Counted from the stretch's first letter, positions 9,812-64,000 are shown. The stretch is DNA of 64,000 bases from Nanobdellota archaeon (GCA_018819305.1 JAHJQO010000040.1:44320-108319), one strand, 5' to 3'. The notes: generated by a model not told the origin, from the letters alone. Made by a program: numbers and translations.

Positions 9812-9926
9812 ACGGACGGTCATAGCTGCGTGGTTTACCTGTTCCCATTTCGAACACAGACGTCAAGAACGCATACGTTCCAGGGTGTACTGCACTTATG
9901 TGTGGGAAACCTGGGAAGCTGTCCAT
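9812..9926 (+). rRNA. rrf: 5S rRNA (stand-alone, no 16S/23S in window)
   Basis: GGACGGTCATAGC...CCCATTTCGAACACAGACGTCAAG...GTGTACTGCAC...GGGAAGCTGTCC. Terminal helix GGACGG/CTGTCC, with helix III-loop C and loop E-like segments. The ends are approximate to +/-3 nt. Confidence 0.85.
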
Positions 9927-9994
9927 TTAAATTTCTCGAAATTTAATAAATGAGTTATTCAATACAATTAAATTAATTGTTAGAATTATTCCAT

Positions 9995-26139: not shown

Positions 26140-27000
26140 TTATAAAGGTTTCAGTTGAGAATTATTGTTATATAAAATAATGCCTTCTGAAATCATGTGT
26201 GCGTACTCATTTTGCACACGTTCATCTGATATTGCTAAATTATCCTCCCTATATTTTTCATCTATAAACCCACATTCAATTAGCACAGAAGGGATTTGAG
26301 TCCTATGCAATGCATGGCCAAGCATTAAGTAGTCATTCATCATGAATCCAGGAATGTATTTTTTGATGTTGTTTTGCTTCACTAAAACCAAATCAGCCTT
26401 ATTGTTACTTGGCTTAAAACTCATTATAAGCGAATCATATATGGAATGAGCTAATAATTTGCTTTTTTCAAACGAACCATTTTCAGGACTGGTTGTAACA
26501 CTAAAACCAGAAAACTTACCTCTATATTCTTCAACTGTATCATTTATATGAATATTAATAATCAAATCAATTGGCTGGCTCTCAGCCCATTTGAGAATGG
26601 ATAATTGAATTACGGCTTCTTCCAAAGGCATACGATGGTTTCCAGTATTATTTTTTCTAAACTCAGATATTTTTTCCAATAGATCTTCTTTATTATGTTT
26701 CAAATAAGTCTCAATACTTGGCAAATAATCTATTTCATCACGAGTCAGAGTAGCGTTCAATCCTTGCTCATGCAAAAATTCTTGGGTTTTCTCAGCAATT
26801 TTTGTATTAATAATATATTCATATCCCACTCCTTTCATATAACAACCATAACCCTGTTTAAATACAGCTTTGTTATGGCCTGGATTAAGAAGAATCTGAA
26901 GATTCTTACTATCTTTATTACTATATATGGAATGATTAAAAACAGATTTAAAATCTAACAAAGCAAAAGATAGATACTGTATGAATTCTCTTCTTTTCAT
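26140..27000 (-). CDS. N-acetylmuramoyl-L-alanine amidase (Amidase_3-like) with Tat-like signal
   Basis: 286 aa. The N-terminus MKRREFIQYLSFALL is twin-arginine-like. Amidase_3-like motifs are LNPGHNK, DLIINIHIND and IPSVLIECGFIDEKYREDNL. Confidence 0.65.
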   Translation of the reverse strand: MKRREFIQYLSFALLDFKSVFNHSIYSNKDSKNLQILLNPGHNKAVFKQGYGCYMKGVGYEYIINTKIAEKTQEFLHEQGLNATLTRDEIDYLPSIETYLKHNKEDLLEKISEFRKNNTGNHRMPLEEAVIQLSILKWAESQPIDLIINIHINDTVEEYRGKFSGFSVTTSPENGSFEKSKLLAHSIYDSLIMSFKPSNNKADLVLVKQNNIKKYIPGFMMNDYLMLGHALHRTQIPSVLIECGFIDEKYREDNLAISDERVQNEYAHMISEGIILYNNNSQLKPL

Positions 27001-29502: not shown

Positions 29503-30264
29503 TTATACTCTTTTCTTCAAAATAGTTATTCTTTCTTCTATGGATGTATAAGGGGGTAAATATCCTATTTTTTTCCAAACATCATGTCTTGTCTTATGTC
29601 TTGGGTTATTTGTTCCAATGATTTTAAACCATTTTTCAATTTCTGCTTTCCTTCTTATATTCAAAGCATACGAGTCGTTTATGTTTCTACCAAACTTAAA
29701 TCCTTTTTTTCCTTTTTGTGTTATTTTCGATTTTATATCCAACTTATTCAATAAATATTTAATTTGTTCTACTAACTTTTTAGAACAAGATGTTATTCTC
29801 AACTCAGGATGATAATTATGATTCTTTTTCCATTCAGTTGACGTCTTGGCTCTTGACCTTTCACACCAAAAAGAACCATCAGTATCAAAAATACCTCTTA
29901 AAACTGCTTTAATAACATCTTTATTATTAGAATATAAAATATTTTTAGGTATTTCAGCAATTAATGATTTAGGACCAATTTGAAAACCAAGACTTATGGC
30001 TTTTTTAATTACTTCTTTTTTGTAAGTTACAATTCCATAAACTTTCCAATAAGGAAATTTTTTTGGTTTTACAGGAGCAAAATACTTTGAAAATAAAGAA
30101 GCTAGATGATTGTCATAATATTGCTTATCTTCAGTTGTGTTTCCAGTTATATAAAGAGCATCTTTATCACTTTCAATCCATCCGTCGCCTATAAAAGCAC
30201 CTAAAATTTCAGCGATTTTAGGATTATTTAATAAATCTTTATTTTTTATTTTTTGATTAAGCAT
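29503..30264 (-). CDS. Free-standing double-motif LAGLIDADG homing endonuclease
   Basis: 253 aa with ILGAFIGDGWI and VLRGIFDTDGSF motifs. Lies between a tRNA gene and a tRNA-like fragment. Confidence 0.85.
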   Translation of the reverse strand: MLNQKIKNKDLLNNPKIAEILGAFIGDGWIESDKDALYITGNTTEDKQYYDNHLASLFSKYFAPVKPKKFPYWKVYGIVTYKKEVIKKAISLGFQIGPKSLIAEIPKNILYSNNKDVIKAVLRGIFDTDGSFWCERSRAKTSTEWKKNHNYHPELRITSCSKKLVEQIKYLLNKLDIKSKITQKGKKGFKFGRNINDSYALNIRRKAEIEKWFKIIGTNNPRHKTRHDVWKKIGYLPPYTSIEERITILKKRV

Positions 30265-47368: not shown

Positions 47369-47517
47369 CGTCAGTACAACATAAAGCTAAAAACACGCTT
47401 TAGTTGTACGTAGTTCGGAGGAAATAACATAATATTTATATAATACAAATACAAAAATAAGAATAACAAACAATTTTTGATAATTTATAAAAAAAATGTG
47501 TGTGAGGGTTGAATAAA

Positions 47518-48192
47518 ATGAAATGGTATCTTCTTCTAGTTGTAGTTATCTTTGGAGCTTTCTTCATCGCCAGTTGTAATCCCGGACAAATCTGTGGTGA
47601 CGGTTATTGTAGTGCAGAAGAAGATGCAATGGGTTATTGCCCACAGGATTGTAATCTGGAACCCATTCCTAAATGCTATGATACTGACGGAGATGACATC
47701 TATACAAAAGGATATTTAACTTATGATGGGAAAAAATATGAAGATGAATGCTATGGTGGCGGTCTTCAACTAGGAGAAATGATTTGCATTTATGAAAATA
47801 ATGCATGGAGCATGGCTAATAGTGTGAGAGAATGTCCAAAAGGAACAACATGTACTGATGGAGCATGCAGAAAATCAGCAATAGTATGTATAGACAACAG
47901 CGAACCTGAATGCCCAACAGGTTCAACTTCTGCATCTTATGTAAACAATGATGGATGCCAGAGCTGGAGATGTGTACCTAACCCAACTGTAACTTGCGCT
48001 GATAGCGATGGTTTTGATGCATATGTTCTTGGCAGAATCACAGGAATTGATTCTGACGGCAATTCATTTACCATATCTGACACATGCGGAACCACCACCA
48101 ATTTAATAGAACGTGTTTGTGAAGGACAAACCGGGGCGATGATTAGAATTCCCTGCGCAAATGGATGCGAAGCTGGGAGGTGTCTACAATGA
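47518..48192 (+). CDS. Secreted cysteine-rich protein, lipoprotein-like signal, two six-Cys modules
   Basis: MKWYLLLVVVIFGAFFIASC signal. The module C-x-D-[ST]-D-G-x-D-x-Y...D-x-C...CP-x-G-x-x-C-x-x-G-x-C occurs twice. ATG at 47518 (GAGGG upstream) is preferred to the listed TTG at 47509. Confidence 0.6.
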   Translation: MKWYLLLVVVIFGAFFIASCNPGQICGDGYCSAEEDAMGYCPQDCNLEPIPKCYDTDGDDIYTKGYLTYDGKKYEDECYGGGLQLGEMICIYENNAWSMANSVRECPKGTTCTDGACRKSAIVCIDNSEPECPTGSTSASYVNNDGCQSWRCVPNPTVTCADSDGFDAYVLGRITGIDSDGNSFTISDTCGTTTNLIERVCEGQTGAMIRIPCANGCEAGRCLQ

Positions 48193-50297
48193 AAGCAAAA
48201 AAAGAAAAAATAAATTATAATTTTGCTATGATAGCAATAGTAGCGATTGTAGCAATTGTTGCACTGGTAATCATTGCCAAAGTTCCAGGAAAAGGATATG
48301 CTTCTCAGCAAATTGCATTTGATAGCATAGAAGTAGATCAAGAGTCGCTTGTTGGACAAGCTTATGGTAATAATCAAGGATGGACTTGTTCAGGTCCAAC
48401 AAACACCTGCTGTAATCAATATCCTGATGGTTGTAATGCAGACTGGAAATGTAGTGATTGCGGTGGTGTTTGGGAAAAATGTGATTCTAAAGCATACAAA
48501 GTATGTCATAATGGAAATGTATGGTGGTTTAATAGCTGCAACCAACCTGATGTTAAGTTTGAAGATTGCGGAACTCAATCCTGCCAAAATGCAAACTGCC
48601 AATGCATTCCAACTTATACTTATAAATGTGAGGGAGGACGCATATTGAAAATTGATAGTTGCACTCAAGCCAAAACTATTTATCTTTCTTGCGGAAGCAA
48701 TGGATGTGATACAACAGCAAATCAATGCAACTGTTATGAAACAGACACATTATTTTATACAAAAGAGGGAATTGAAGACAAATATAAATGTCGTTCTGAG
48801 TATGATTCTGAATTTGGTATCACTGTTTACTATGAAAAACAAGGATATTGTGATGGATCAAAATTTAAATGGGAATTAGAAGAAAACTGTGGTAATAACC
48901 CTTGTGATATAGTTACTGGATGCAGTGGTTCTGGCGGACCAACTGCATGTCGCGGAACTGATCCTTCTGGAGCTGGAATAAATATGGGAACTGACAGAAC
49001 GTATTCTGGCATGAGCTGGACATATTCATCAGCATACAATAATTTGAAGCCTTGCGAATGGGGTTGTAAAACTAATGAGAATTTTGAAAGAGATGGAAAC
49101 ACTTGCAAATGTGCAGTAGGATACAAAGCAGATGGACTTAAGTGTGTTCCTGATATAAGAACTTGCGAAGGAACAAAGCCAACACATGCTGATAGAGGTG
49201 CAATTAAATATACATTCATGGGAACTACAAAAACATGGGTACACAAACCTAATAAAGCAGAAGCAGAACTAGGAGCTTGTGAATATAACTGTCAAACAGG
49301 TTTCAAGAACTCTGCTGAAACAAATTCTTGCATAATGGATTTAAAAAATTGTGGAGGAACTACTCCAACTCAAGGATATTCAATTAGAGGAAACCCTCAA
49401 TACCAACATGGTGTAAGTCAAACAACTAGATGGACTTACAACAACACAGGAACTCTTGGAAGGTGCGAGTTCAAATGCCAACAAGGATATTATCCAAATA
49501 ATGCAAATAATAATTGTGTTGAATGCACAAGTATCAGTCATTGTGCAAACCAAGCATGCAAAAACAAAGCATGTACAAATAATCAATGTACTTACACTAA
49601 TGTTGCAGCAACATGCCCCGCAGCAAACACAATAAACTGCGGAGTGCAAATAACACCAACCAACCAATGCGGAAAATGCACAGGAACAGGAACAAAATGC
49701 ACAACAGGAAAAACATGCCAAAATAATCAATGCGTAGAATGCACAACAAACACAAACTGCAATGACAACAACGCTTGCACAACAGACACATGCATAAACA
49801 ACAACTGCAATTATGCAGCCAAATGTTCACCAACACAAACATGTAATACCTCAACAGGTAACTGTATTGATCCGATTGCGTGCACAGATTCTGACGATGG
49901 ATACGATTATTATAAAGCAGGAACACTAGTCTGGTATGCTGAGACTGGTGAAAAATTAACAAATAAAGACTATTGTACAGAAACAATAATAACTGAATAT
50001 GGTTGTGTAGATGGAAAATCTGTTTCCAAAGTCTTTACGTGCCCAAACGGATGCAATAACGGAGCATGCACTCCAACATTACAAGCAACTTGTATTGACC
50101 ATGACGCAAGCGATCCTTACAGGATTTATGTAAGTAGTTATGTGTCAGGCGATTATGGACAAGGTGACAGTGCTTATAATGTGCAAGATGTGTGTGACAG
50201 TAACAAAGTACTCAAAGAACAAATGTGCTTTGAAAACAAACCTGTGACAATGTTCATCAACTGTCCAGGCACATGCAACAATGGCGCATGTCAATAA
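48189..50297 (+). CDS. Large anchored cysteine-rich repeat protein
   Basis: The ATG overlaps the upstream stop (ATGA at 48189-48192). N-terminal TM (IAIVAIVAIVALVII). More than 80 Cys by eye. A C-x-N-x-x-C-T-x-D-x-C-type run (CNDNNACTTDTCINNNC) is followed by two C-terminal copies of the same six-Cys module as the upstream gene. Confidence 0.6.
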   Translation: MKAKKEKINYNFAMIAIVAIVAIVALVIIAKVPGKGYASQQIAFDSIEVDQESLVGQAYGNNQGWTCSGPTNTCCNQYPDGCNADWKCSDCGGVWEKCDSKAYKVCHNGNVWWFNSCNQPDVKFEDCGTQSCQNANCQCIPTYTYKCEGGRILKIDSCTQAKTIYLSCGSNGCDTTANQCNCYETDTLFYTKEGIEDKYKCRSEYDSEFGITVYYEKQGYCDGSKFKWELEENCGNNPCDIVTGCSGSGGPTACRGTDPSGAGINMGTDRTYSGMSWTYSSAYNNLKPCEWGCKTNENFERDGNTCKCAVGYKADGLKCVPDIRTCEGTKPTHADRGAIKYTFMGTTKTWVHKPNKAEAELGACEYNCQTGFKNSAETNSCIMDLKNCGGTTPTQGYSIRGNPQYQHGVSQTTRWTYNNTGTLGRCEFKCQQGYYPNNANNNCVECTSISHCANQACKNKACTNNQCTYTNVAATCPAANTINCGVQITPTNQCGKCTGTGTKCTTGKTCQNNQCVECTTNTNCNDNNACTTDTCINNNCNYAAKCSPTQTCNTSTGNCIDPIACTDSDDGYDYYKAGTLVWYAETGEKLTNKDYCTETIITEYGCVDGKSVSKVFTCPNGCNNGACTPTLQATCIDHDASDPYRIYVSSYVSGDYGQGDSAYNVQDVCDSNKVLKEQMCFENKPVTMFINCPGTCNNGACQ

Positions 50298-50372
50298 ATA
50301 AAATTTTTTATTTTTTTATTCTTTAAATAAAAATGATGAAAATAAAAGAAAAGAATTCTTCATAATCGTATA

Positions 50373-54159: not shown

Positions 54160-57100
54160 TCAGTCTTTTTTTATCAAATCATTGCAATCCACTGACAAGA
54201 AAGAATTCAAATGCTGCTCCAGGAATGATTTGAGCTTTGATTCAAGCAATCCTTTTATATTGCCGTCTCTCATCAAAGCATTCACATATTCATTGTCAAT
54301 TGCAGGAATCATTCTCAGCATTTCTGACTGCAGCTGGCTTGTATCTGGCAGCCTGCCTTCAAGAATATCATGCACATACTGGTTTTTCATAGAATCAGGC
54401 AGTTCATTGAGTTCTTTTTGCAGCATATCATAAGCTGCTCCTTTAAAATCTCTTGTTGAAGCAACTTCTTTCAGAATTTCCGGAGCATTTTCATCAAACT
54501 TATCAACAGCCTTATTCAAAAGCTGCTCTTTTGCAGACTCTGCAGTTTCAAAACTATTTAATGCATCATGATAAACATCTTCAATCTCATCATTTCTAAG
54601 GCATGCAACTGCCTGCTCTGCAGATATGCCATAACTATCAACACAACCTTTTTCAACTGCTTTTTCAACAAGCATGTCTCTTATTTCTTGTCCATTCCTG
54701 CTGTTGGCAATTTCAAGCAAATCTTTCTTTTTCTGGTCAGCAGTAAGCTCATTTTCAGCTGCCTGAATCAGTTTGCCATAAGCAAGACTTTCTGGGTCCT
54801 GACCTTTTGCAACTTCTTTTAATATTTCAGGTGCTTTTGAACTGTCAACATAATCAATTCCTTTTTGCATAGCCATTTGTTTTGTGGCTGTTGTCAAATC
54901 CTCTCCTGCCATTATATTATTAAATATAAAATTTGCATCCTGATTTTTTATCTGACCTGACAAATGATTCATCACTGTTTGTCTTTCCCAGATAGACAGG
55001 TCTTCAACAGAGTCAACAAGAGAATTGCCAATTATATCTTCATTGATTGTGTCAACAATAAAGCTTTCAAAATAATTCTTTAAGTCGCCGCCAAGAGCAT
55101 CAACATTTAACTTAACCATATCATTAAAGTCACCATTGCCAGTAACTGCATTTACAAAATCATCAGTGTCAGGCAGTTCAATATAAGGTTTTAAATCATC
55201 AGGAATAATACCTGCAGGAAGAAATGAGCCTAATTCTTTTTCAAGCAGCTCAGAAACAACTAAATCAAGCAAAGAGTTAGTTTGCACACAATTACTAATA
55301 GCATTTGCCAGCATCTTATTGCCATTCTTGTCAACAGGAACGAGTGCAACACAATAGTTTTTTCTCAGAACCTTGTCAATTATTATGGATAATTCTCCGC
55401 ATTTCTTAAGATTAAACACCATTTTACCATCTTTGACAACTCCTTTGATGGCAGGCACCATAACTGTTTCTCCTGAAAACTTACTCACAGGAACATTGCA
55501 GTCTTTTAAATCAAGGAACTTTGAATAAGGATTTGTATTTACATATTGGTCAAGCTGGCTTACTTTCTGGTTTATGCCGCTATTTGCCATTACAACAAAC
55601 TGGCTTGGATTTGATTTATCAAGAATATCTGTTGGTATCATGTTTGTAAGGAAATCAGTGCAATGCACTTCATAACCAGCAACATCCAAAGGATTACCAT
55701 CCTTGTCTTTTGGCACTTCAACCACAACTTCAAATTTTCTTGACTGTGTTTCATCAAGAGCTTCTAATATTGAACTTGCTGATGCAATATAACCAAGAAG
55801 AGGATTAATTAAGCCTGCAAGTTCTAAAACCTTGTTTAAATCTGAAGGTGATGTGCCAACTTCTGTTTCTACTAATGTTATTTCTCCTTGTTTCACTGGT
55901 TCAGGGGGCTTGTCTTTCATCTGAAATGAGAATTTCATCTTCATTAGCTCAGTTTTGTTTTCATCTGGTTTTGCACAAAGCCTGAACTTGTCTTTGTTGT
56001 AAACACATTGAGCAACATCTGTGTTAACAAAGAAACCTTCTTTAGCAGTTGTTAGTTTTGTAAGTTTTATAACCTTGTAATTATCCCAAGTGATTGCACC
56101 ATCCAATTCACCAAACTCTTTCATTTGTATAAGTTCTGCAGTATTCAAGGATCCTGTATCAAGAAACTTAAGCCTGAGCAAGTAAGATTTATAACTTGAA
56201 GGAGGAACTATTTTGCCAAAATAAAACTCATGCCTGTCAATTGTTTCAAAAGAACCATCACTTCTCTTAATAACCAAAGACGCTGTGTTTTCTTCTGTAT
56301 TAAACATAATGTTTAAGTCATTTCCTGAAACAACATTTGAAAGATTGAATTCGCAACCGCATTTATATTTCTGGTTTGAAAAGCAGTCTTCAAAAGCTTC
56401 CATCATATCATAGAACAAAGGATAATCCTCGCACTGATCTGCAAATGACAAAGTAAAATCATATTTATCAGGCTGATCATTGAACTCTTTCATTTTCTCA
56501 TTCAAACATGTTCTAGGATCATCAGTGCACGCATTCCAAGTCTTGTCAAACCAGTCAGTAAGCTGCTTTATTGGATCATCCATCTTCTTATTTACACGAG
56601 TTGTAAATGCTGGCTTGAAATTATAAGTGCCAAAACCTACAGTTTCCTTGGTTTTAGAATCTGGACCTATTGTATCTGGTTCAAAATAAGTTTCCGTAAC
56701 AGCTCCAGTTATGTCTGAATCAGAACCCTGATTTGAATCAGAAGGAATTACTGGTGTATTTAAAAACGCGTCAGGCAAATCATATTTGTTACATACAGTG
56801 TTAAGTTCTGTATTTATAGGTTGATTGCATCCAGATCCTGATATTGAATCTGCTTTTTCAAGCAGGCACTCAGGATGAATATGATCTGTTGAACCAAAAC
56901 TATGAAGAACCATTTTCTGAGAACCGTATTTTAAACCTGTAGGTACACCTTTGTAAAGCACTGCAAAATGAAGGTGAGCTCCATAAACATCAGGCCTGCA
57001 ATATCCTGATTTATCTTTTCCTCTGCCACCAACAGTTCCTATTTTTTGTCCTCGCTCAACTTGCTGGTCAGGTTCTACATTCCAAGTATCTAAGTGCAAA

Positions 57101-57933
57101 TATTCTGTGCTAAGTCCAGAGCCATGATAAATAACAACTCTTCCCCAGCATTTGTCAACAGCAGTTACTTTTCCGCTCGCAGCAGCAATAACATTGGTTC
57201 CTTTGCTTGCAGTAATATCAATTCCAGGATGATCAGTTGAACCTATATTTCCACCCATGTCTCTCCATCCAAAACAAGAATGAATCATTTTCTGAGCTGT
57301 CTGAACTGGCCAAGAAAGTTTTCCTCCTTCAAAAGTTGGCATAATAGCAAGAGGGTCTTTTTTTCTGGCTTCTATACTCAAAACATTAAAATCACTATCA
57401 GTGTCAGATATACCATAAAGCAAGAAATGATCTTCAAACTTTTTTATACTTAAGTTATAAGAAATTGGAAGATTAATACCTGTAAGTTGGTAGTAGTTCT
57501 TGGTGCGAGCCACAAAATCATCCTGAAATGCATTAAGAAATGCTGTTTCACAATCAGGAAAGCAAAGAGTATCATTTGTACTCCAAAGCGGATAAACAAA
57601 TTTACCACAGGGCGACGCCCATTCATCAACAACTTCTTCTTCTGCAACACCCACAAAGCAGGATTGCCTGATTTTATCTAAAGCTGTCTGGGATGAAAGT
57701 TTTGAGGACTGGTCTAAAAATAAATGAATTGCATCTGCATCCTGAAGAGCTGAAAAAACACTCATTTGTTTTTCTCCTAAAAACTGCTCTTCACCATTAA
57801 AATCCTTAATATTTTTTGCATTACTTAAGGCAATAAGTGCATATGAAAGAGTGATAATTGTAAAAAGCAGCACAAAAATAGGATAAACCTGTGCTTTTTT
57901 GTTTTTTCTTAAACTTCTTGATTTTATTTTCAT
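54160..57933 (-). CDS. 1257-aa pilin-like-anchored protein with M23/LytM metallopeptidase domain
   Basis: The N-terminus MKIKSRSLRKNKKA-QVYPIFVLLFTIITLSYALIAL has the class III signal shape. The M23 motifs are HPGIDI (HxxxD) and AHLHF (HxH) with GKVTAV...GLSTEYLHL...VERGQKIGTVGG between them (about aa 205-330, nt 56944-57321). A C-terminal internal repeat is APEILKEVAKG... / APEILKEVAST.... The start overlaps the upstream stop (ATGA). Confidence 0.8.
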   Translation of the reverse strand: MKIKSRSLRKNKKAQVYPIFVLLFTIITLSYALIALSNAKNIKDFNGEEQFLGEKQMSVFSALQDADAIHLFLDQSSKLSSQTALDKIRQSCFVGVAEEEVVDEWASPCGKFVYPLWSTNDTLCFPDCETAFLNAFQDDFVARTKNYYQLTGINLPISYNLSIKKFEDHFLLYGISDTDSDFNVLSIEARKKDPLAIMPTFEGGKLSWPVQTAQKMIHSCFGWRDMGGNIGSTDHPGIDITASKGTNVIAAASGKVTAVDKCWGRVVIYHGSGLSTEYLHLDTWNVEPDQQVERGQKIGTVGGRGKDKSGYCRPDVYGAHLHFAVLYKGVPTGLKYGSQKMVLHSFGSTDHIHPECLLEKADSISGSGCNQPINTELNTVCNKYDLPDAFLNTPVIPSDSNQGSDSDITGAVTETYFEPDTIGPDSKTKETVGFGTYNFKPAFTTRVNKKMDDPIKQLTDWFDKTWNACTDDPRTCLNEKMKEFNDQPDKYDFTLSFADQCEDYPLFYDMMEAFEDCFSNQKYKCGCEFNLSNVVSGNDLNIMFNTEENTASLVIKRSDGSFETIDRHEFYFGKIVPPSSYKSYLLRLKFLDTGSLNTAELIQMKEFGELDGAITWDNYKVIKLTKLTTAKEGFFVNTDVAQCVYNKDKFRLCAKPDENKTELMKMKFSFQMKDKPPEPVKQGEITLVETEVGTSPSDLNKVLELAGLINPLLGYIASASSILEALDETQSRKFEVVVEVPKDKDGNPLDVAGYEVHCTDFLTNMIPTDILDKSNPSQFVVMANSGINQKVSQLDQYVNTNPYSKFLDLKDCNVPVSKFSGETVMVPAIKGVVKDGKMVFNLKKCGELSIIIDKVLRKNYCVALVPVDKNGNKMLANAISNCVQTNSLLDLVVSELLEKELGSFLPAGIIPDDLKPYIELPDTDDFVNAVTGNGDFNDMVKLNVDALGGDLKNYFESFIVDTINEDIIGNSLVDSVEDLSIWERQTVMNHLSGQIKNQDANFIFNNIMAGEDLTTATKQMAMQKGIDYVDSSKAPEILKEVAKGQDPESLAYGKLIQAAENELTADQKKKDLLEIANSRNGQEIRDMLVEKAVEKGCVDSYGISAEQAVACLRNDEIEDVYHDALNSFETAESAKEQLLNKAVDKFDENAPEILKEVASTRDFKGAAYDMLQKELNELPDSMKNQYVHDILEGRLPDTSQLQSEMLRMIPAIDNEYVNALMRDGNIKGLLESKLKSFLEQHLNSFLSVDCNDLIKKD

Positions 57934-58577
57934 TTTATTAGTTTTATTTCAAAAAATGCAGTGTGTGAATAAAACATTATCTTTGCCATTTGGCCATCTG
58001 TGCAAGGTATTACTTGCGAGCCAAAGCCTGCTTCTCTGTAAGGAGTTGCAAATAACTCCCAAGCTAAAGGTTTAGGAATTGCATTAGAAGCAGCAGTACC
58101 TGCCAAAAAAATCACAGTTACAAGACTGTTTATGCTTTTCTTAAGGCTGCTTTTATGGCCAAATGTTTTTTTGCTTGAATTTGAATATATAATCCAAAGT
58201 TCCCAATCATCATCATAAATTCCATCAAAGAAGTTCTCTAATGACGCTTTCAAAGCATCATGGTTATAATCGTAATAGTCTTCTTGTTTATTGCAAGTCC
58301 ATGATATCAAATCTGCATTTGTTATATCTTCACCCACATCTGGAAATAAATCCTTTGGAATGTTTCCATCTGAATCATAAACTGGTGATATTAAGAAATT
58401 ATTTAGCAAAAGCTCTGTACTAAGTGAAGAAGCCCCAAGTTCTGCTTCTGCTGATTTATTGGCAGCCATAAACCTAAATAAAAAGATAAAAATAATAAAA
58501 ACAGCCACTAAGAAAATAACTGCAAAAATAGTCAAAATGGTTTTCATTCCTTTTTTTGATTTCAAAAGTCTTTTCAT
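57930..58577 (-). CDS. Pilin-like (class III signal-type) protein
   Basis: 215 aa with the N-terminus MKRLLKSKKG-MKTILTIFAVIFLVAVFIIFIF. Translationally coupled to both neighbours. Confidence 0.55.
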   Translation of the reverse strand: MKRLLKSKKGMKTILTIFAVIFLVAVFIIFIFLFRFMAANKSAEAELGASSLSTELLLNNFLISPVYDSDGNIPKDLFPDVGEDITNADLISWTCNKQEDYYDYNHDALKASLENFFDGIYDDDWELWIIYSNSSKKTFGHKSSLKKSINSLVTVIFLAGTAASNAIPKPLAWELFATPYREAGFGSQVIPCTDGQMAKIMFYSHTAFFEIKLIK

Positions 58578-58580
58578 TTT

Positions 58581-59099
58581 TCAGTTAGGTATCAAAATCA
58601 TTGTTTTGATGTAGCCAGGAAGATTCACACTATTTTTTCTATAAAGTATAGGTATGGTTCTAGTGAAAATATCTGCACTGCCTTCTCCTTTTATCCTACT
58701 CTGAGCAAGAGGTTCCAAGCGCGTATACCAAACACCGTTAAGATAAGCTGTTTTTACAAGCTCTTTTTTCTGGTCATATAATTCTAGTTTTGCAGCTATT
58801 TGTCTTTCATAAGAGTAAGTAATAGATTTGTCTAAGGTTTCATTTGTAAAATTATCCAAGGCAATAATACCAGGATAAACTCTACCTGTTACCTGATCCA
58901 TGTACATTATTGAATTCGGAGAATATATCAACCGATTGAAAAGAACTTCTCTCTGAAGCGGTTTAGGATCAACAGTAATGTTAATGAATAAGTTGATTAA
59001 AAGAAATATACCTGCCATGACTGCAACAGTTAGGACAATATAAGGAATAAATTCTAATATTTCCTCAGCTCCCACACCTCCTTTTTTGTTAAGTTTCAT
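58581..59099 (-). CDS. Pilin-like protein
   Basis: 172 aa with the N-terminus MKLNKKGG-VGAEEILEFIPYIVLTVAVMAGIFLLI. 2-3 nt gaps to both neighbours. Confidence 0.5.
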   Translation of the reverse strand: MKLNKKGGVGAEEILEFIPYIVLTVAVMAGIFLLINLFINITVDPKPLQREVLFNRLIYSPNSIMYMDQVTGRVYPGIIALDNFTNETLDKSITYSYERQIAAKLELYDQKKELVKTAYLNGVWYTRLEPLAQSRIKGEGSADIFTRTIPILYRKNSVNLPGYIKTMILIPN

Positions 59100-59101
59100 T
59101 T

Positions 59102-59533
59102 CTAATCAAACCTTATTGAATTATTCTCAAATATAATTTTAAAACTCGATGGAGTAACAGTAATATTTGACTTATTGACAGAAACATATTCATTAAACCC
59201 AATTCTAAACAAAGTCTTGGCTCTTGATTCCACAGGCTTGTCATCCCTGTCTGTTAAAAAAACATGGTCTGGCTCCAGATTAATATCCAAAGGCATATTA
59301 TCAGGTGTATTGACATCATACTCCATGACAAAATAGCCATTGCTTGCATGCATGGAATCAACTAAAAGAGCTAGGTCTCTGGCATAAAACCTTTTATGAA
59401 AAGTAGAATCACCAAGTGCACTCTCCACTCTGAGAAAAACAGCTATTACAAAGAAAGCTGCCAGTATCAAACCGAACATCACATAGAAAAGATTTGCCAG
59501 CATTGTCTTGGCTTTTTTATTAAATAAATACAT
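59102..59533 (-). CDS. Pilin-like protein
   Basis: 143 aa with the N-terminus MYLFNKKA-KTMLANLFYVMFGLILAAFFVIAVF. Confidence 0.5.
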   Translation of the reverse strand: MYLFNKKAKTMLANLFYVMFGLILAAFFVIAVFLRVESALGDSTFHKRFYARDLALLVDSMHASNGYFVMEYDVNTPDNMPLDINLEPDHVFLTDRDDKPVESRAKTLFRIGFNEYVSVNKSNITVTPSSFKIIFENNSIRFD

Positions 59534-59609: not shown

Positions 59610-60761
59610 TTATTGATAAGTATTACTAATCTGCTTTAGAGACAATAAAAGGGAGTTCCCGCATTCAACTCTTTTTCCTTGCTTATAAAAAGCACACTTA
59701 TCATTTTCATTATGAACCTTACAAGGGTCAGAACTACAATAATATTGTTCCTGAGTGTCACAACTCGCGGTTTCGCTAATAGCTTTGCAATAATGGCTGC
59801 ATTTTGTTATAGCTTCACAGTTTACTGGCAGCACTTGGAACGAAGTTCCACCAGTAGAAAGACAATAGACCTTATCAAGTTGCTGACTCAAATCAACAAA
59901 TGTATTTCCACATAAGCAATTAGAAGTTATTTTTTGATTAATGGCACAATTTGTTATGCCTGTTTGTAAAATGCATTTCTGCTGGTCATCATTATAATAA
60001 CAAAACTGATTAACACTGACTTTTGAATTACTTCTTTTACCTATACACAGCTCATCTGATGTGGAAGGACATTCAACCAGAGTAGATTCTCTTTGCTTAA
60101 TCATTTCTGGAGAAAGACCTGCGGCAACCAGAACATGAATATTTCCATTAGGAGCAATAAATTTCTCAAGATATAAATCAACCATTTTTGCATATCCCAG
60201 CTGCAAATGATCATAATCAAAACGCAACTCAGCAGGATAGTCTACAGTTAATTCAGGAGAATGCTTTGGAAAATTCACTAAATCACCAGGATCTAAATAT
60301 GAAGATATCATATCTACTCCACTCAAAAAATATCCGTGAAAAATCACATTATCATCAAAAGGCCTGCATGTTGAAGGATTAGATGGGACATGATCCAATT
60401 TGTTATAAAAACAAAGACAAGGCTTGTATCCCTTACAATCCTTTACAGGATACTGCTCATAAGAGAATCCTGATTTGGGTCCATTTAATCCAAAAATATA
60501 ATGTTTTTTCTTCATGTAAAAAATCATGGTTTGAGAGTCAAAAGACCCATCTTTCTCAAGCATGAACTCCAAATTATCTGCCAAAGCATTATAATTGCTA
60601 AGAGCAGCAGGTTCTTGTCCTCCTGTTAAAGCTTGTATAAATTTATAACCGAGGTAAACAAGCAATACAATGCACATTATAACAAAAATTATGTGAATTA
60701 AATCACCCATGCCAGTCTCTTGTTGGCCTCTTTTATTCAATTTTCTCTGAAAAAAACGCAT
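59610..60761 (-). CDS. Pilin-like protein with cysteine-rich C-terminal half
   Basis: 383 aa with the N-terminus MRFFQRKLNKRG-QQETGMGDLIHIIFVIMCIVLLVYL. About 20 Cys lie in the last 170 aa. Confidence 0.5.
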   Translation of the reverse strand: MRFFQRKLNKRGQQETGMGDLIHIIFVIMCIVLLVYLGYKFIQALTGGQEPAALSNYNALADNLEFMLEKDGSFDSQTMIFYMKKKHYIFGLNGPKSGFSYEQYPVKDCKGYKPCLCFYNKLDHVPSNPSTCRPFDDNVIFHGYFLSGVDMISSYLDPGDLVNFPKHSPELTVDYPAELRFDYDHLQLGYAKMVDLYLEKFIAPNGNIHVLVAAGLSPEMIKQRESTLVECPSTSDELCIGKRSNSKVSVNQFCYYNDDQQKCILQTGITNCAINQKITSNCLCGNTFVDLSQQLDKVYCLSTGGTSFQVLPVNCEAITKCSHYCKAISETASCDTQEQYYCSSDPCKVHNENDKCAFYKQGKRVECGNSLLLSLKQISNTYQ

Positions 60762-60824: not shown

Positions 60825-61466
60825 TTAATTCTGATCAGTAGGATAAACATTTATTGTGATACTCTTTTCTGATGGAGTTCCTGCTTTGCATTTCTCAGTA
60901 TCAACTTTGCAAATAACAGGAATACGTCCTGTCGCTCCAATTATAGAGCATTCAGCATTAAACACAGGTTTTCCTTTATCAGAAGTTGTCCAAGTTTCTT
61001 TTTCACAAGGAATTGCCTTAACTGAAGACGCATTAATCTTAATACATCCTTCTGCTTTGATATTTGTCTCACACTCAATGTAAAAAGTTCTTTCAACAAC
61101 AACAGATTCCGGAGTAACAGTAATACGAGTAATATTTACTTTTTCATCAGGAGCCCCACCAGCACTTCCTCCACCTGAAACTATTTCTCCAAAACAACAA
61201 TAAGGTCGAGCAGGGTCTGCTTCAGAACACTGAAATATTTTCATCTTTGTACCATCACAAGCAGTATTCGCAGATACACAAACACCTTCTTTTCCCCAAA
61301 GATTTCCAAAACCCGAACAGCTAATTGCTTCACCAGTTATATTCTGAGCAGGTTTAAAAGCTCCTTTAGTCGCAAGATTTAGGAGTATATACGTAGCAAC
61401 TGCTAATAAAATAACAGTAAATATGATTTCTGGCACGCTCATTCCTTTTTTTGATTTTAACAACAT
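60825..61466 (-). CDS. Type IV pilin-like protein (G-MxxxE signature), cysteine-rich
   Basis: ATG at 61466 gives MLLKSKKG-MSVPEIIFTVILLAVATYILL, with Glu at +5 after the putative cleavage Gly. The listed start at 61478 is TTG. Confidence 0.6.
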   Translation of the reverse strand: MLLKSKKGMSVPEIIFTVILLAVATYILLNLATKGAFKPAQNITGEAISCSGFGNLWGKEGVCVSANTACDGTKMKIFQCSEADPARPYCCFGEIVSGGGSAGGAPDEKVNITRITVTPESVVVERTFYIECETNIKAEGCIKINASSVKAIPCEKETWTTSDKGKPVFNAECSIIGATGRIPVICKVDTEKCKAGTPSEKSITINVYPTDQN

Positions 61467-61478
61467 ATCACCTAGCAA

Positions 61479-62319: not shown

Positions 62320-63030
62320 TCAAGCTGTAACACAAGCATTCACATCTCTATCAGTCTCCTTGTCCACGAATGATTTAATGCTAGCAACATAATTCACAAG
62401 GCTGTTTTCTGAGCAAGGAGCATACTTAACTAAAATATCTCCAACAGTTGTTAATCCTTCTCCAACATAATTATTTTTTATCAGGTCAAACCAGTGCTGA
62501 ACTCCTCTTTTCCAGGTTGGATAACTGCAAAATCCTTCATAATTTGTGCCTGAATATTTAGTTTTGCACGTATTTGTATATCTTATATTTCCAATTGACT
62601 TGGTTGTTGAGGCTTTACCTGCTTTTCCAAAACTTGATTCTTGCCTGAAAAATGCAAGAGCAATAGCATTATCAATTCCTGTTCTTTCACTCTCAGATAC
62701 AAAAAAACTAGCTATGTCAGGCTCTGCTATGATTGCTGGCGAGTTGGCATCTTTGAGTATTTTTTCAACTTCTGCTGCAGACAATGAAGGAGAATGCATA
62801 ACTGTAAGTTTGCATTTCAAAGCATTATCATTACAAGATTCTCCTGAATTTTCAGAGCCAAAAACACCTAAATCAATATCTATAGGAGTATTATCATCTG
62901 CTACAACAAAAATACTTTGAACTACTTTTCTTGAACCAGGAAAAACTATCAAAATAAGTGCAATAATTACAAATATGATGAGCACAATTGTGAATATTTT
63001 TCCTAATACATTTTCTGCACCATCAGACAT
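62320..63030 (-). CDS. N-terminally anchored lysozyme-like (GH73 glucosaminidase / SLT-type) murein hydrolase
   Basis: 236 aa with a hydrophobic N-terminal helix (KIFTIVLIIFVIIALILIVF). The pattern GIDNAIALAFFRQESSFGKAG...IGNIRY...FCSYPTWKRGVQHWFDLIKNNY...VKYAP...NYVASIKSFV has a catalytic-type Q-E-S-x-F. Confidence 0.6.
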   Translation of the reverse strand: MSDGAENVLGKIFTIVLIIFVIIALILIVFPGSRKVVQSIFVVADDNTPIDIDLGVFGSENSGESCNDNALKCKLTVMHSPSLSAAEVEKILKDANSPAIIAEPDIASFFVSESERTGIDNAIALAFFRQESSFGKAGKASTTKSIGNIRYTNTCKTKYSGTNYEGFCSYPTWKRGVQHWFDLIKNNYVGEGLTTVGDILVKYAPCSENSLVNYVASIKSFVDKETDRDVNACVTA

Positions 63031-63039
63031 TTTTTAACC

Positions 63040-63195
63040 TCAAAAAATACTTTTTAATAAATTTGGAAGATTCAAAGCAATTACCATTATAATTAGAACA
63101 ATAAGAAGCAAACCAAGTATAATCCAAAGTGTGCTGCCTAAAGCAGGCATTGGCTGTACATCTGCCTGTGCTTTCTTATTATTCATATTCTTCAT
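63040..63195 (-). CDS. 51-aa single-pass membrane protein
   Basis: MKNMNNKKAQADVQPMPALGSTLWIILGLLLIVLIIMVIALNLPNLLKSIF. Below the ORF-track cutoff. It fills the gap in the operon. Confidence 0.35.
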   Translation of the reverse strand: MKNMNNKKAQADVQPMPALGSTLWIILGLLLIVLIIMVIALNLPNLLKSIF

Positions 63196-63249: not shown

Positions 63250-64000
63250 CTATCCAAGCACTTCTTTTTCCTTATCTTGCCTTACAGGCATTATTTCGCA
63301 GCCTATTTGCTTTAAGTTTTCTGCTGTATATTCTTCAAAAATCACCATTGACACCCATTCAACACCTTTTGATTTTAAAGCATCAATAATTGCACCCCCG
63401 ATAGCTCCAAGAACTGCTCCAGCACCAACTACTACTGCCGCAGCTCCACCTGTAGCACCTATAATGGCAGCAGTGAGAATTCCTGCTGTTGCACCTCCAA
63501 GAGAACCATAATAAGCACTCCAAGCCTTTGCATCTTGTTTTGTTTGGTAATAAGTATTTAATTTTTCATAAAAATCCTGCATATAATCGTCTCCTTTTGC
63601 ATAAACAAACATAGTGGCATAAGTTTTTGATGAGTCAAGAACCTTCAATGCTGTATTTTGCTGGACTTGCTGAATAAATTCAGGCGAAGCTTTTTCTTCA
63701 ATATCACCAGTCAGATAATCCATATAAGTCAAATCATTAAATTTTTCATCATTAACTTTTGTTGTTAATAAATATTCAGTGAGACCCTCTATTTGTTTAT
63801 TTTTTTGATTAAAATCAATAACAGAGCAAATATGACAGAAGTAACCTTCTCCTTTAAATAATTGAATCTGGCCACGCCCCCAAGTTCCCCAACAAGTCTT
63901 TAATGAATCTGCAATATAACGCTTTGATTCTTTTTCATTTGATTTGGGAATAGTATAATATTTTGTTGGACAATATATATCAGTAACTAAAGCTTCTCCA
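63250..64000 (-). CDS. Hypothetical protein, 5' end beyond window, Gly/Ala-rich C-terminal membrane segment
   Basis: The reading frame stays open upstream of the listed Met to base 63999 (GEALVTDIYCPTKYYTIPKS...CWGTWGRGQIQLF...). The C-terminus is GGATAGILTAAIIGATGGAAAVVVGAGAVLGAIGGAII. Confidence 0.5.
   Translation of the reverse strand, partial: GEALVTDIYCPTKYYTIPKSNEKESKRYIADSLKTCWGTWGRGQIQLFKGEGYFCHICSVIDFNQKNKQIEGLTEYLLTTKVNDEKFNDLTYMDYLTGDIEEKASPEFIQQVQQNTALKVLDSSKTYATMFVYAKGDDYMQDFYEKLNTYYQTKQDAKAWSAYYGSLGGATAGILTAAIIGATGGAAAVVVGAGAVLGAIGGAIIDALKSKGVEWVSMVIFEEYTAENLKQIGCEIMPVRQDKEKEVLG

What the first reader, a model, noticed from the sequence alone, without database searches (positions are those of the whole stretch)
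54160..57933. Giant (1257 aa) pilin-leader protein with intact M23 zinc-peptidase motifs and a duplicated C-terminal helical unit
The HxxxD (HPGIDI) and HxH (AHLHF) motifs are separated by the usual GKV...GxxxxYxHL...G..V..GQxIG core. This places a LytM-type domain at about aa 205-330, right after the N-terminal anchor. The remaining roughly 900 residues have no motif I recognise. The exception is a clear internal duplication near the C-terminus (VDSSKAPEILKEVAKGQDPESLAYGKLIQ... and FDENAPEILKEVASTRDFKGAAYDMLQ...). Its start overlaps the stop of the upstream pilin-like gene, so it is probably made stoichiometrically with the small subunits. It would be a candidate tip or effector subunit.
Basis: partly seen in the sequence, partly recalled or inferred. 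Interest (0 to 1): 0.7.

Follow-up and report, generated by a model that had tools for sequence, protein, structure and literature searches.

The report
Pilin-led giant archaeal cell-wall cutter
A tiny symbiotic-type archaeon (Woesearchaeota/Nanoarchaeota) encodes a 1257-residue surface protein with an intact bacterial-cell-wall-cutting peptidase, as the last gene of a conserved operon made only of pilin-like proteins, which suggests a filament-borne tool for breaching bacterial walls.

Summary
A 1257-aa ORF lies at 54160-57933, on the minus strand. It has a Peptidase_M23 domain (Pfam E=7e-21). The Zn and catalytic residues H235, D239, H280, H320 and H322 are invariant in all 15 homologues. 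A C-terminal helical unit of about 66 residues is duplicated (hhalign E=3.7e-9). The start overlaps the upstream stop (ATGA).

The organism is a DPANN archaeon; NCBI names the identical protein "M23 family metallopeptidase [Nanoarchaeota archaeon]". The family is small: 80 hits among 1.84 billion representatives. Its architecture is constant: [K/R-G/A leader + hydrophobic helix]-[N-domain]-[swappable murein-hydrolase cassettes]-[unannotated Cys-rich module + FN3-like domain]. The cassettes seen are M23, SLT, Amidase_2, NlpC/P60, 3D and GDSL/VanY. This subfamily adds a helical tail.

In loci from eight different assemblies the gene ends a run of 12-16 genes. Nearly all of them start with an archaeal class-III (pilin-type) signal-like N-terminus. 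No assembly ATPase, platform protein or prepilin peptidase was found in the flanks examined.

Best reading: an active, extracellular murein endopeptidase aimed at bacterial walls, probably presented by a type-IV-filament-like or bindosome-like assembly. The enzyme and its target are well supported. The filament or tip role is inferred.

Large murein hydrolases in Woese-/Pacearchaeota are already published. The pilin-type operon and the constant scaffold did not turn up in my library searches. Verdict: new variant of a known kind.

The parts
54160..57933 (-). Whole ORF, 1257 aa plus stop: giant M23 murein hydrolase, last gene of the pilin-like cluster
57892..57933 (-). aa 1-14: basic leader ending KKA, the putative class-III signal-peptidase site KKA|Q
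   Evidence: In the 15-sequence alignment the -1 position is A or G in 15 of 15, -2 is K/R in 14 of 15, and +1 is mostly Q. For the cluster-wide motif.
57820..57891 (-). aa 15-38: hydrophobic helix (pilin alpha-1-like, or a membrane anchor)
   Evidence: (helix 12-39)
57319..57819 (-). aa 39-205: conserved N-domain (IGxKQ...CGKxVYPxW...CxPDC). It is shared with the wider hydrolase family, has no library match, and is mostly helical at low pLDDT.
56899..57318 (-). aa 206-345: Peptidase_M23 catalytic domain, with H235/D239/H322 as Zn ligands and H280/H320 catalytic
56749..56898 (-). aa 346-395: conserved Cys-containing extension of the M23 region (C356, C369, C381)
56641..56748 (-). aa 396-431: S/D/T/G-rich linker. 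This is where paralogues carry an inserted SLT or Amidase_2 domain.
55879..56640 (-). aa 432-685: unannotated Cys-rich module 'CM1' (GxYxFxPxF...C..C..FN...CxC...FRLCA...KFALxLxDxPP). About 60 other archaeal murein hydrolases share it.
55747..55878 (-). aa 686-729: PPEP linker plus a moderately hydrophobic, low-confidence segment
55279..55746 (-). aa 730-885: beta-rich FN3/Ig-like domain (AGYEVxC...VPVDKNGN). This assignment is inferred.
   Evidence: strands. Pfam fn3 matches the C-terminal part (aa 677-759) of relative P0040. Foldseek gives only weak Ig/FN3 matches.
54163..55104 (-). aa 944-1257: all-helical C-terminal domain (pLDDT about 85), specific to this subfamily
54697..54900 (-). aa 1012-1079: helical repeat copy 1 (..SKAPEILKEVAKG..)
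54352..54549 (-). aa 1129-1194: helical repeat copy 2 (..ENAPEILKEVAST..)
57930..58577 (-). Upstream cluster gene, 215 aa, N-terminus MKRLLKSKKG|MKTILTIF.. (pilin-like). Its stop overlaps the M23 start.
58581..59099 (-). Cluster gene, 172 aa, KKG + hydrophobic helix. Orthologues are present even in the distant loci L006 and L007.
59102..59533 (-). Cluster gene, 143 aa, NKKA + helix. Orthologues are present in L004-L007.
59610..60761 (-). Cluster gene, 383 aa, NKRG + helix, Cys-rich C-terminus
60825..61478 (-). Cluster gene, 213-217 aa, SKKG + helix
61479..62249 (-). Cluster gene, 256 aa, NKKG + helix
62320..63030 (-). Cluster gene, 236 aa: N-terminal helix plus a lysozyme/glucosaminidase-like domain (FRQESSFG). 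In relatives the same domain is fused to CM1.
   Evidence: Weak Glucosaminidase/SLT_4 matches. BLASTP 3e-28 to P0038 and 3e-36 to P0040.
63040..63195 (-). Small cluster gene, 51 aa, NKKAQ + helix. A gene of 43-55 aa sits at the same place in L004-L007.
63250..64000 (-). 3' part of a cluster gene of about 297 aa, cut by the window end. It has a conserved Cys domain and a Gly/Ala-rich glycine-zipper-like hydrophobic segment.

Best explanation
The gene encodes an extracellular, catalytically competent M23 zinc endopeptidase of a Woesearchaeota/Nanoarchaeota (DPANN) archaeon. Its substrate is bacterial murein. It belongs to a small archaeal family built on a constant scaffold. The scaffold has a class-III-signal-like leader and hydrophobic helix, a conserved N-domain, one or more interchangeable murein-hydrolase cassettes, and then a Cys-rich module with an FN3-like domain. 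This subfamily adds a duplicated helical tail.

The gene is the last one of a conserved operon of 12-16 genes. The operon appears to consist almost entirely of pilin-like proteins, and it also holds a lysozyme-like protein.

Proposed mechanism (inferred):
1. The proteins are inserted by their N-terminal helices.
2. They are probably trimmed after K-[G/A] by a prepilin-type peptidase.
3. They assemble through those helices into a type-IV-filament-like or bindosome-like surface structure.
4. That structure presents the hydrolase, at a tip or on the cell surface, to the wall of a bacterial host or prey.
5. The M23 domain cuts peptide cross-links, and the lysozyme-like partner cuts glycan, opening the sacculus locally for attachment, access or feeding.

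Shown: the intact M23 site, the family architecture, the murein-specific cassette repertoire, the conserved all-pilin-like operon, and native chromosomal context.

Inferred: leader cleavage, filament incorporation, tip position, and a living bacterial target.
For: Enzyme:
- Pfam M23 E=7e-21. PDB profile E=9e-24. Foldseek probability 1.0 to Pgp3, DipM, ShyA and Csd.
- H235, D239, H280, H320 and H322 are invariant in 15 homologues at 24-57% identity. They are intact in all close relatives.

Murein as target:
- Orthologues insert SLT or Amidase_2 after the M23 domain.
- Proteins sharing CM1 carry M23, SLT, 3D, Amidase_2, NlpC/P60 and GDSL/VanY.
- The operon's 236-aa lysozyme-like domain is fused to CM1 elsewhere.
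- An Amidase_3 gene is also in the window.

Extracellular location:
- N-terminal helix, and 26 Cys residues, many of them invariant.

Pilin-like operon:
- 49 of 61 cluster proteins from five loci have [KR][GA] within 12 residues before the hydrophobic core. Composition-preserving shuffles give 23.
- Many read like archaeal pilins, for example KKG-VELSMNVIIIAAIGLLVL.
- The order of the operon and the terminal position of the hydrolase are kept in L004-L007, L010, L013, L014 and L017. L012 shows the same order but ends before the hydrolase gene.

Archaeal and native:
- RPA, RadA and PCNA are neighbours. GC is 0.344 in the cluster against 0.337 in the window. There are no viral relatives.

Literature:
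- Large extracellular murein-hydrolase proteins in Woese-/Pacearchaeota (PMC8204110, PMC9723730).
- Archaeal peptidoglycan hydrolases that kill bacteria (PMC12352652).
- Functional proteins with class-III signals in archaea (PMC3047682; bioRxiv 10.64898/2026.04.22.720090).
- Modular tip pilins in bacteria (PMC8179133, PMC12075869).
Against: - No assembly ATPase, platform protein or prepilin peptidase was found. I checked the window ORFs I scanned, the 10-kb flanks of L004-L007 (precomputed Pfam), and about 6.5 kb upstream of the cluster in L010 and L012-L014 (Walker-A motif and inspection only).
- No Pfam or NCBIfam pilin or class-III-signal model matches any cluster protein.
- The AF2 model of aa 39-205 is helical and of low confidence rather than a pilin-type beta head.
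- At 1257 aa the protein is larger than the largest modular pilin (860 residues) named in the bacterial survey (PMC8179133).
- In several cluster proteins a polar stretch separates the K-G motif from the hydrophobic core.
- Substrate, activity, processing and host are all untested.
Confidence: 0.55

Rival explanations
1. Plain signal-anchored surface enzyme. The N-terminal helix is only an uncleaved membrane anchor. The basic residues reflect the positive-inside rule. The enzyme sits on the archaeal membrane and no filament is involved. The neighbours are merely other anchored surface proteins.
For: No TFF machinery genes were found nearby. No pilin profile matches. The N-domain model is not pilin-like. 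The protein is very large.
Against: G/A at -1 and K/R at -2 are conserved position by position in homologues of 24-57% identity. The motif is enriched in 49 of 61 cluster proteins against 23 expected. The small first genes of the cluster look like archaeal major pilins. An operon of 12-16 proteins all with the same N-terminal design is typical of filament loci.
Confidence: 0.28
2. Scavenging enzyme. The hydrolase and its partners digest free murein or dead bacterial walls for amino sugars and peptides. They do not breach a living host or prey.
For: Same enzymatic evidence as the main explanation. DPANN genomes have limited biosynthesis (PMC8204110). The window also has a separate Amidase_3.
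Against: The enzyme is tethered by a helix rather than freely secreted. It sits in a structural pilin-like operon. Published readings favour contact with bacterial cells (PMC8204110, PMC9723730). The two roles are not mutually exclusive.
Confidence: 0.12
3. Autolysin or remodelling enzyme for the archaeon's own wall (murein-like or pseudomurein), or a degenerate LytM that only regulates another hydrolase.
For: M23 proteins in bacteria are often housekeeping autolysins or activators (NCBIfam matches to MepM, NlpD, EnvC). The window has sugar-nucleotide and flippase-like genes.
Against: All Zn and catalytic residues are intact, unlike EnvC/NlpD-type domains. No Mur ligase was found among the window ORFs scanned. 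SLT and Amidase_2 chemistry does not fit pseudomurein (established enzymology). Only 2 of the archaeal hydrolases surveyed come from pseudomurein makers (PMC12352652).
Confidence: 0.04
4. Lysin of an integrated virus or mobile element, analogous to phage tail-associated M23 lysins.
For: The PDB profile search also matches M23 domains of phage structural proteins (9m7n Gp16, 9k2v internal protein, 8kea hub).
Against: There is no relative in 2.9 million viral contigs. Synteny with RPA is stable across the Woesearchaeota-type loci L004-L006, L010, L013 and L014, and RadA also lies downstream in L004-L006. GC content is native. No flanking repeats were found.
Confidence: 0.01

Closest known systems
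Large extracellular murein-hydrolase proteins of Woesearchaeota/Pacearchaeota (fam00969 of Castelle et al. 2021, PMC8204110; 'large lytic murein transglycosylase' of Vigneron et al. 2022, PMC9723730)
   Same: Same lineages, giant size and extracellular location, with bacterial murein as predicted target. Orthologues and relatives of this protein carry the SLT domain on the same scaffold.
   Different: This member has M23 only and no SLT. The papers, as far as I read them, do not mention pili, M23, a pilin-like operon or the shared non-catalytic modules. I could not compare sequences with fam00969 directly.
Bacterial M23 DD-endopeptidases: C. jejuni Pgp3 (6jmx), V. cholerae ShyA (6ue4), H. pylori Csd1-3, E. 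coli MepM
   Same: Catalytic fold and all Zn and catalytic residues. These are the best sequence and structure matches.
   Different: Those are periplasmic housekeeping or shape enzymes of 250-450 aa acting on the cell's own wall. This is a 1257-aa archaeal protein with about 1000 residues of unrelated modules, in an organism not expected to make murein.
Modular type IV pilins and tip complexes (S. sanguinis PilB/PilC, PMC8179133; M. xanthus Kil/Tad tip pilins KilL/M/N used in predation, PMC12075869)
   Same: A class-III-signal-like N-terminus and helix carry bulky functional modules. The gene is encoded alongside several small pilin-like genes. A role at the contact site with another cell is proposed.
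   Different: Bacterial leaders end in G and have the IPR012902 motif, which is absent here. No peptidoglycan or hydrolase term occurs in the Kil paper. Filament incorporation is untested here.
[quoted passage not shown]
   Same: Large non-pilin functional proteins are exported with pilin-type signals. They are thought to assemble at the surface through the N-terminal helix, with the machinery encoded elsewhere in the genome.
   Different: The cargo there is solute-binding proteins encoded next to ABC transporters. Here it is a wall hydrolase inside an all-pilin-like operon.
Archaeal weaponised peptidoglycan hydrolases (Halogranum 'Woldo', zoocin A-like M23 + PG_binding_1; PMC12352652)
   Same: An archaeal M23 enzyme directed at bacterial murein.
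   Different: Woldo is a small secreted enzyme with known PG-binding domains. This protein has no recognised wall-binding domain, has a pilin-like N-terminus and sits in an operon.
Gram-positive conjugation hydrolases such as E. faecalis PrgK (TM anchor + LytM + SLT + CHAP; 8s0u)
   Same: An N-terminal membrane helix is followed by several murein-hydrolase domains within a surface-machine operon. The PrgK LytM domain is a structural match.
   Different: PrgK opens the donor's own wall for a type IV secretion channel. There are no T4SS genes here, and the organism is an archaeon. The PrgK domain order is from my own knowledge.

Membership tests
Peptidase family M23 (active lysostaphin/LytM-type metallopeptidase) | Sequence match to the family profile above the curated threshold | tested here: met
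   Pfam PF01551, 74.6 bits against a cut-off of 28.7, E=7e-21
Peptidase family M23 (active lysostaphin/LytM-type metallopeptidase) | HxxxD and HxH motifs (Zn ligands H, D, H; catalytic His residues) present and conserved | tested here: met
   H235, D239, H280, H320 and H322 are invariant in 15 of 15 homologues. The pattern is HDHHH in 24 of 36 family M23 domains. The rest are truncated alignments or an HxD variant in distant members.
Peptidase family M23 (active lysostaphin/LytM-type metallopeptidase) | M23 beta-fold | tested here: met
   AF2 pLDDT is 80-95 over aa 205-345. Foldseek probability is 1.0, E as low as 6e-11.
Peptidase family M23 (active lysostaphin/LytM-type metallopeptidase) | Zn-dependent cleavage of murein peptide bonds | not testable with these tools
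   Needs the purified domain and muropeptide analysis
Degenerate LytM regulators (EnvC/NlpD type) | Loss of Zn-ligand residues | tested here: not met
   All ligands are intact. The protein is not filed here.
Archaeal type IV pilin-like proteins (class III signal peptide substrates) | Short basic leader ending [K/R]-[G/A/S], directly followed by a hydrophobic helix of about 20 residues | tested here: met
   The sequence reads ...RKNKKA|QVYPIFVLLFTIITLSYALIAL. The positions are conserved in homologues. The motif occurs in 49 of 61 cluster proteins against 23 expected.
Archaeal type IV pilin-like proteins (class III signal peptide substrates) | Recognition by curated pilin or class-III-signal profiles | tested here: not met
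   No such Pfam or NCBIfam match for this protein or any cluster protein. Such short signals are often missed by profiles.
Archaeal type IV pilin-like proteins (class III signal peptide substrates) | Encoded with other pilin-like genes | tested here: met
   12-16 co-oriented genes with the same N-terminal design, seen in loci from eight assemblies
Archaeal type IV pilin-like proteins (class III signal peptide substrates) | TFF ATPase, platform protein and class III signal peptidase present (in the locus or the genome) | tested here: inconclusive
   Not found among the window ORFs scanned, in the 10-kb flanks of L004-L007 (precomputed Pfam), or in about 6.5 kb upstream in L010 and L012-L014 (motif and inspection only). 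The rest of the genome is not available here.
Archaeal type IV pilin-like proteins (class III signal peptide substrates) | Pilin-type globular head after alpha-1, and incorporation into a filament | tested here: inconclusive
   The AF2 model of aa 39-205 is helical with pLDDT mostly below 60. Incorporation is not testable here.
DPANN large extracellular murein hydrolases (fam00969-type) | Woese-/Pace-/Nanoarchaeota origin, very large extracellular protein | tested here: met
   Source names. 1257 aa with an N-terminal helix.
DPANN large extracellular murein hydrolases (fam00969-type) | Murein lytic transglycosylase (SLT/GH23) domain | tested here: not met
   No SLT in this protein. SLT is present in the orthologues/paralogues P0006, P0008-10, P0013 and P0014 on the same scaffold.
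DPANN large extracellular murein hydrolases (fam00969-type) | Sequence membership in the published protein cluster | not tested

The most novel reading that the evidence does not exclude
The operon of 12-16 genes builds a previously undescribed archaeal type-IV-filament-derived 'wall-breaching' organelle. In this reading small major pilins form a fibre, minor pilin-like proteins form a tip complex, and the terminal gene supplies a giant tip pilin. That tip pilin has interchangeable murein-hydrolase cassettes (M23, SLT, amidase, NlpC/P60 and others) mounted on a constant scaffold. Together with a lysozyme-like subunit and glycine-zipper membrane-active subunits, it would let Woese-/Pacearchaeota dock onto and open the envelope of bacterial hosts. 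This would be a mechanistic basis for cross-domain episymbiosis or predation by DPANN archaea.
Probability: 0.3. Interest if true: 0.85.

Novelty: new variant of a known kind. Interest (0 to 1): 0.62.

Why it matters
DPANN archaea of the Woese-/Pacearchaeota type are abundant, uncultured and assumed to depend on hosts. Who the hosts are, and how contact is made, is open.

Murein-specific enzymes in an archaeon point to bacterial partners. Here those enzymes sit on a constant scaffold with a pilin-type N-terminus. They close a conserved operon made only of pilin-like proteins.

That turns a vague idea, 'they may degrade bacterial walls', into a testable structural hypothesis: a filament or bindosome-like assembly that presents wall hydrolases.

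It also defines two unannotated conserved modules, the N-domain and CM1. It shows a cassette-swapping logic that could be mined for new wall-targeting enzymes.

Tried and rejected
1. Function for the C-terminal 830 residues. I tried Pfam and NCBIfam, PDB sequence profiles of the whole C-terminus and of CM1 alone, and Foldseek of the AF2 model against PDB and BFVD. Nothing was significant. The best was E about 0.01, with Ig/FN3-like adhesin or tail proteins and TM-scores near 0.1. The multi-domain model (pTM 0.38) probably hampers whole-chain matching.

2. Filament machinery. No T2SSE, T2SSF or Peptidase_A24 match among about 50 window ORFs. There is also none in the precomputed Pfam of loci L004-L007. 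No Walker-A ORF lies upstream in L010 or L012-L014.

3. Walking further upstream. The 51-aa gene is not on record. The organism's own contigs in NCBI stop inside the cluster.

4. Viral origin. There is no relative in IMG/VR. The CM1 alignment was too divergent for a pattern scan.

5. Mobile segment. No meaningful repeats flank the 12.8-kb stretch at which several MAG contigs end.

6. Degenerate-LytM idea. Rejected, because the ligands are invariant.

7. Pfam class-III-signal families on the small putative major pilins. No match.

Full report
**1. The observation**

The ORF is real but lies on the minus strand: ATG at 57933, stop at 54160-54162, 1257 codons. HPGIDI sits at aa 235-240 and AHLHF at aa 319-323. 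SGKV, YLHL and GQKIG lie between them.

Pfam Peptidase_M23 matches aa 234-331 at E=7.2e-21, 74.6 bits against a cut-off of 28.7. A profile of the N-terminal 392 residues matches solved M23 enzymes, with C. jejuni Pgp3 (6jmx) at E=9e-24, followed by ShyA, DipM, Csd and lysostaphin. The AF2 model of this part has pLDDT 80-95 over aa 205-345. Foldseek returns the same enzymes at probability 1.0.

The C-terminal duplication is genuine. Local alignment scores 88 against 31.8+/-5.3 for shuffles. Profile-profile comparison of the two halves of the helical domain aligns aa 1012-1079 with aa 1129-1194 at 96% probability, E=3.7e-9. A 30-nt DNA repeat 348 nt apart marks its core.

The start overlaps the stop of the upstream gene as ATGA. 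One detail of the finding is wrong: a conserved domain of about 165 residues separates the N-terminal helix from the M23 domain.

**2. Organism and context**

The neighbours are archaeal housekeeping genes. RPA is directly downstream. RadA, a RadA paralogue, PCNA, ribosomal protein S2, gyrase A and class II RNR also lie in the window.

An identical protein is on record as 'MAG: M23 family metallopeptidase [Nanoarchaeota archaeon]'. Homologues are labelled Candidatus Woesearchaeota.

GC content of the cluster (0.344) equals that of the window (0.337). No relative exists in 2.9 million viral contigs. No repeats flank the region. The gene is therefore native and chromosomal.

**3. The family**

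A word-indexed search of 5.8 billion proteins found only 15 homologues. In their alignment H235, D239, H280, H320 and H322 are invariant at 24-57% identity. Many of the 26 cysteines are invariant too, which fits an extracellular, disulfide-bonded protein.

Several orthologues carry an extra domain inserted at the linker after the M23 region (query aa 396-431). It is SLT in P0006, P0008-10, P0013 and P0014, and Amidase_2 in P0005.

An exhaustive HMM search with the C-terminal 828 residues against 1.84 billion representatives gave only 80 hits. Eighteen cover the whole C-terminus. About 60 share only its first ~250 residues, query aa 432-685. I call this module CM1.

Pfam scans of 17 of those relatives show what sits upstream of CM1:
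- M23
- SLT
- 3D
- Amidase_2, including Amidase_2 + M23 + SLT in one protein
- NlpC/P60 + SLT
- Amidase_2 + 3D
- GDSL + VanY

Three of the 17 had no Pfam catalytic domain. All the domains found are typical of murein-acting enzymes.

The same relatives also share the N-terminal design and the N-domain. The architecture is thus a constant scaffold with interchangeable murein-hydrolase cassettes.

CM1 has no match in PDB sequences. The AF2 model of the C-terminus (mean pLDDT 68.7) shows three parts:
- an alpha/beta plus beta region, which is CM1
- a beta-rich FN3-like region
- a confident all-helical tail of about 300 residues

Foldseek finds nothing significant for it in PDB or BFVD.

In distant members the second His of HxH is replaced by Asp. 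In the close family the site is intact.

**4. The operon**

Upstream on the same strand the window holds eight more genes, the last cut by the window end. They encode 215, 172, 143, 383, 217, 256, 236 and 51 aa, plus the cut gene of about 297 aa. All start with a short basic stretch, usually ending K/R-G/A, followed by a hydrophobic helix of about 20 residues.

The same arrangement recurs around homologues that share only 24-56% identity. These are L004, L005, L006 and L007, and the species-representative genomes L010, L013, L014 and L017. L012 shows the same order but ends before the hydrolase gene.

Each locus has 12-16 co-oriented genes, laid out as follows:
- It begins with two genes of 80-100 aa whose N-termini read like archaeal major pilins, for example MNKKGVELSMNVIIIAAIGLLVL.
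- Larger pilin-like proteins follow.
- The giant hydrolase comes last.
- RPA follows in the Woesearchaeota-type loci, and Hef in L007.

Orthologues of the 143- and 172-aa genes are detectable even in the most distant loci.

Across five loci, 49 of 61 cluster proteins have [KR][GA] within 12 residues of the hydrophobic core. Composition-preserving shuffles give 23. In the hydrolase alignment the -1 position is A/G in 15 of 15 and the -2 position is K/R in 14 of 15.

The 236-aa gene (62320-63030) has a lysozyme/glucosaminidase-like domain. Pfam matches are weak. In other family members this domain is fused to CM1: BLASTP E=3e-28 to P0038 and 3e-36 to P0040. The operon therefore supplies a putative glycan-cutting partner as well.

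**5. What is missing**

- No TFF ATPase, platform protein or prepilin peptidase was found in three places. These are the window ORFs scanned, the 10-kb flanks of L004-L007 by precomputed Pfam, and about 6.5 kb upstream of the cluster in four further loci by motif and inspection.
- No curated pilin or class-III-signal profile matches any cluster protein.
- The N-domain model is helical and of low confidence.
- The 4-nt overlap with the upstream gene is kept in L005 and L007. Elsewhere the spacing ranges from a 1-nt overlap to a 57-nt gap. Tight linkage is conserved, but stoichiometric coupling is not shown.

**6. Mechanism**

Well supported: this is an extracellular, active M23 endopeptidase aimed at bacterial-type murein. 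The catalytic site is intact. The cassette partners are all murein enzymes. The organism is an archaeon. Its closest characterised relatives are DD-endopeptidases of Gram-negative bacteria, so cross-link cleavage in mDAP-type murein is the most likely chemistry. That last step is an inference.

Inferred: the K-[G/A] leaders are class III signals. The operon's products would assemble through their N-terminal helices into a type-IV-filament-like or bindosome-like structure that presents the hydrolase.

Precedents:
- Sulfolobus binding proteins with class III signals, assembled by machinery encoded elsewhere (PMC3047682).
- Thousands of such archaeal proteins in a recent survey (bioRxiv 10.64898/2026.04.22.720090).
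- Bacterial modular pilins (PMC8179133).
- The tip complexes of the Myxococcus predation pilus (PMC12075869).

The main rival is a plain uncleaved membrane anchor. It differs only in how the enzyme is presented.

**7. Relation to what is known**

Large extracellular murein-transglycosylase proteins in small-genome Woese-/Pacearchaeota have been reported and read as tools for attaching to or attacking bacteria (PMC8204110, PMC9723730). Archaeal peptidoglycan hydrolases that kill bacteria have been shown experimentally for a halophile M23 enzyme (PMC12352652).

This protein is best seen as the M23-only member of that DPANN family. The following did not turn up in my library searches or in the term searches of those papers:
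- the pilin-type N-terminus
- the conserved all-pilin-like operon
- the constant N-domain and CM1/FN3 scaffold with swapped cassettes
- the duplicated helical tail

Verdict: a real feature and a new variant of a known kind. Interest is moderate to high because it gives a concrete, testable structure for how these archaea might engage bacterial walls.

Noticed in passing
window 26140-27000 (-): A separate 286-aa Amidase_3 (N-acetylmuramoyl-L-alanine amidase, E=1e-19). Its N-terminus looks twin-arginine-like (MKRREFIQYLSF..). This is a third murein-degrading enzyme type in the same archaeal window.
   Followed up: partly
window 63250-64000 (-) and orthologues in L004-L007, L010-L017: The cluster protein of about 300 aa has a conserved Cys domain followed by a long Gly/Ala-rich glycine-zipper-like hydrophobic segment (e.g. 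GGATAGILTAAIIGATGGAAAVVVGAGAVLGAIGGAII). A similar Gly-rich insert replaces the aa 690-730 segment of the hydrolase in relative P0042. These may be membrane-active elements.
   Followed up: partly
window about 63146-63167 and about 50304-50330: Contigs of about 12.8 kb from three NCBI MAG assemblies (GCA_018829025.1, GCA_018820305.1, GCA_018821995.1) end at about 63146-63167, inside the 51-aa cluster gene. The two whose full span was read (L001, L002) also end together near 50304-50330. No flanking repeats explain this. Strain variation on either side is a possible cause.
   Followed up: partly
relatives P0038, P0074, P0080 (and probably P0030, P0055, P0062, P0068): Distant family members have H-L-D in place of the H-x-H motif of M23 (e.g. 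PHLDFKVY). This is a conserved Asp-for-His substitution at the third Zn-ligand position.
   Followed up: partly
window 6977-9670 (-): The UDP-glucose/GDP-mannose dehydrogenase gene is interrupted by an intein with a LAGLIDADG homing-endonuclease domain. Intein_splicing spans aa 278-726.
   Followed up: no
window 29503-30264 (-): A free-standing 253-aa ORF with a LAGLIDADG_3 domain (E=2e-12), next to RNase J. It may be a homing endonuclease. Its host element was not identified.
   Followed up: no
L013 and L015 (genome contigs): Two contigs carrying the same pilin-like operon are titled 'uncultured Methanosarcinales archaeon' and 'Alphaproteobacteria bacterium'. This is probably mis-binning of DPANN contigs. 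It could conceivably reflect co-occurrence with partner organisms.
   Followed up: no
window 54461-54490 and 54809-54838: The core of the two helical repeat copies is 80% identical at the DNA level and 9 of 9 identical in protein (APEILKEVA). In orthologues the two copies are more diverged, which suggests local gene conversion in this lineage.
   Followed up: partly
window 47509-48192 (+) and 48165-50297 (+): Two Cys-rich secreted or anchored proteins with no Pfam match. The first has a lipobox-like FIASC N-terminus. The second (710 aa) has a basic stretch followed by a hydrophobic helix. They add to the surface-protein load near the cluster.
   Followed up: no
window 9812-9927 (+): A stand-alone 5S rRNA gene (57.5 bits) with no 16S or 23S rRNA in the 64-kb window. 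No tRNA genes were detected in the whole window.
   Followed up: no
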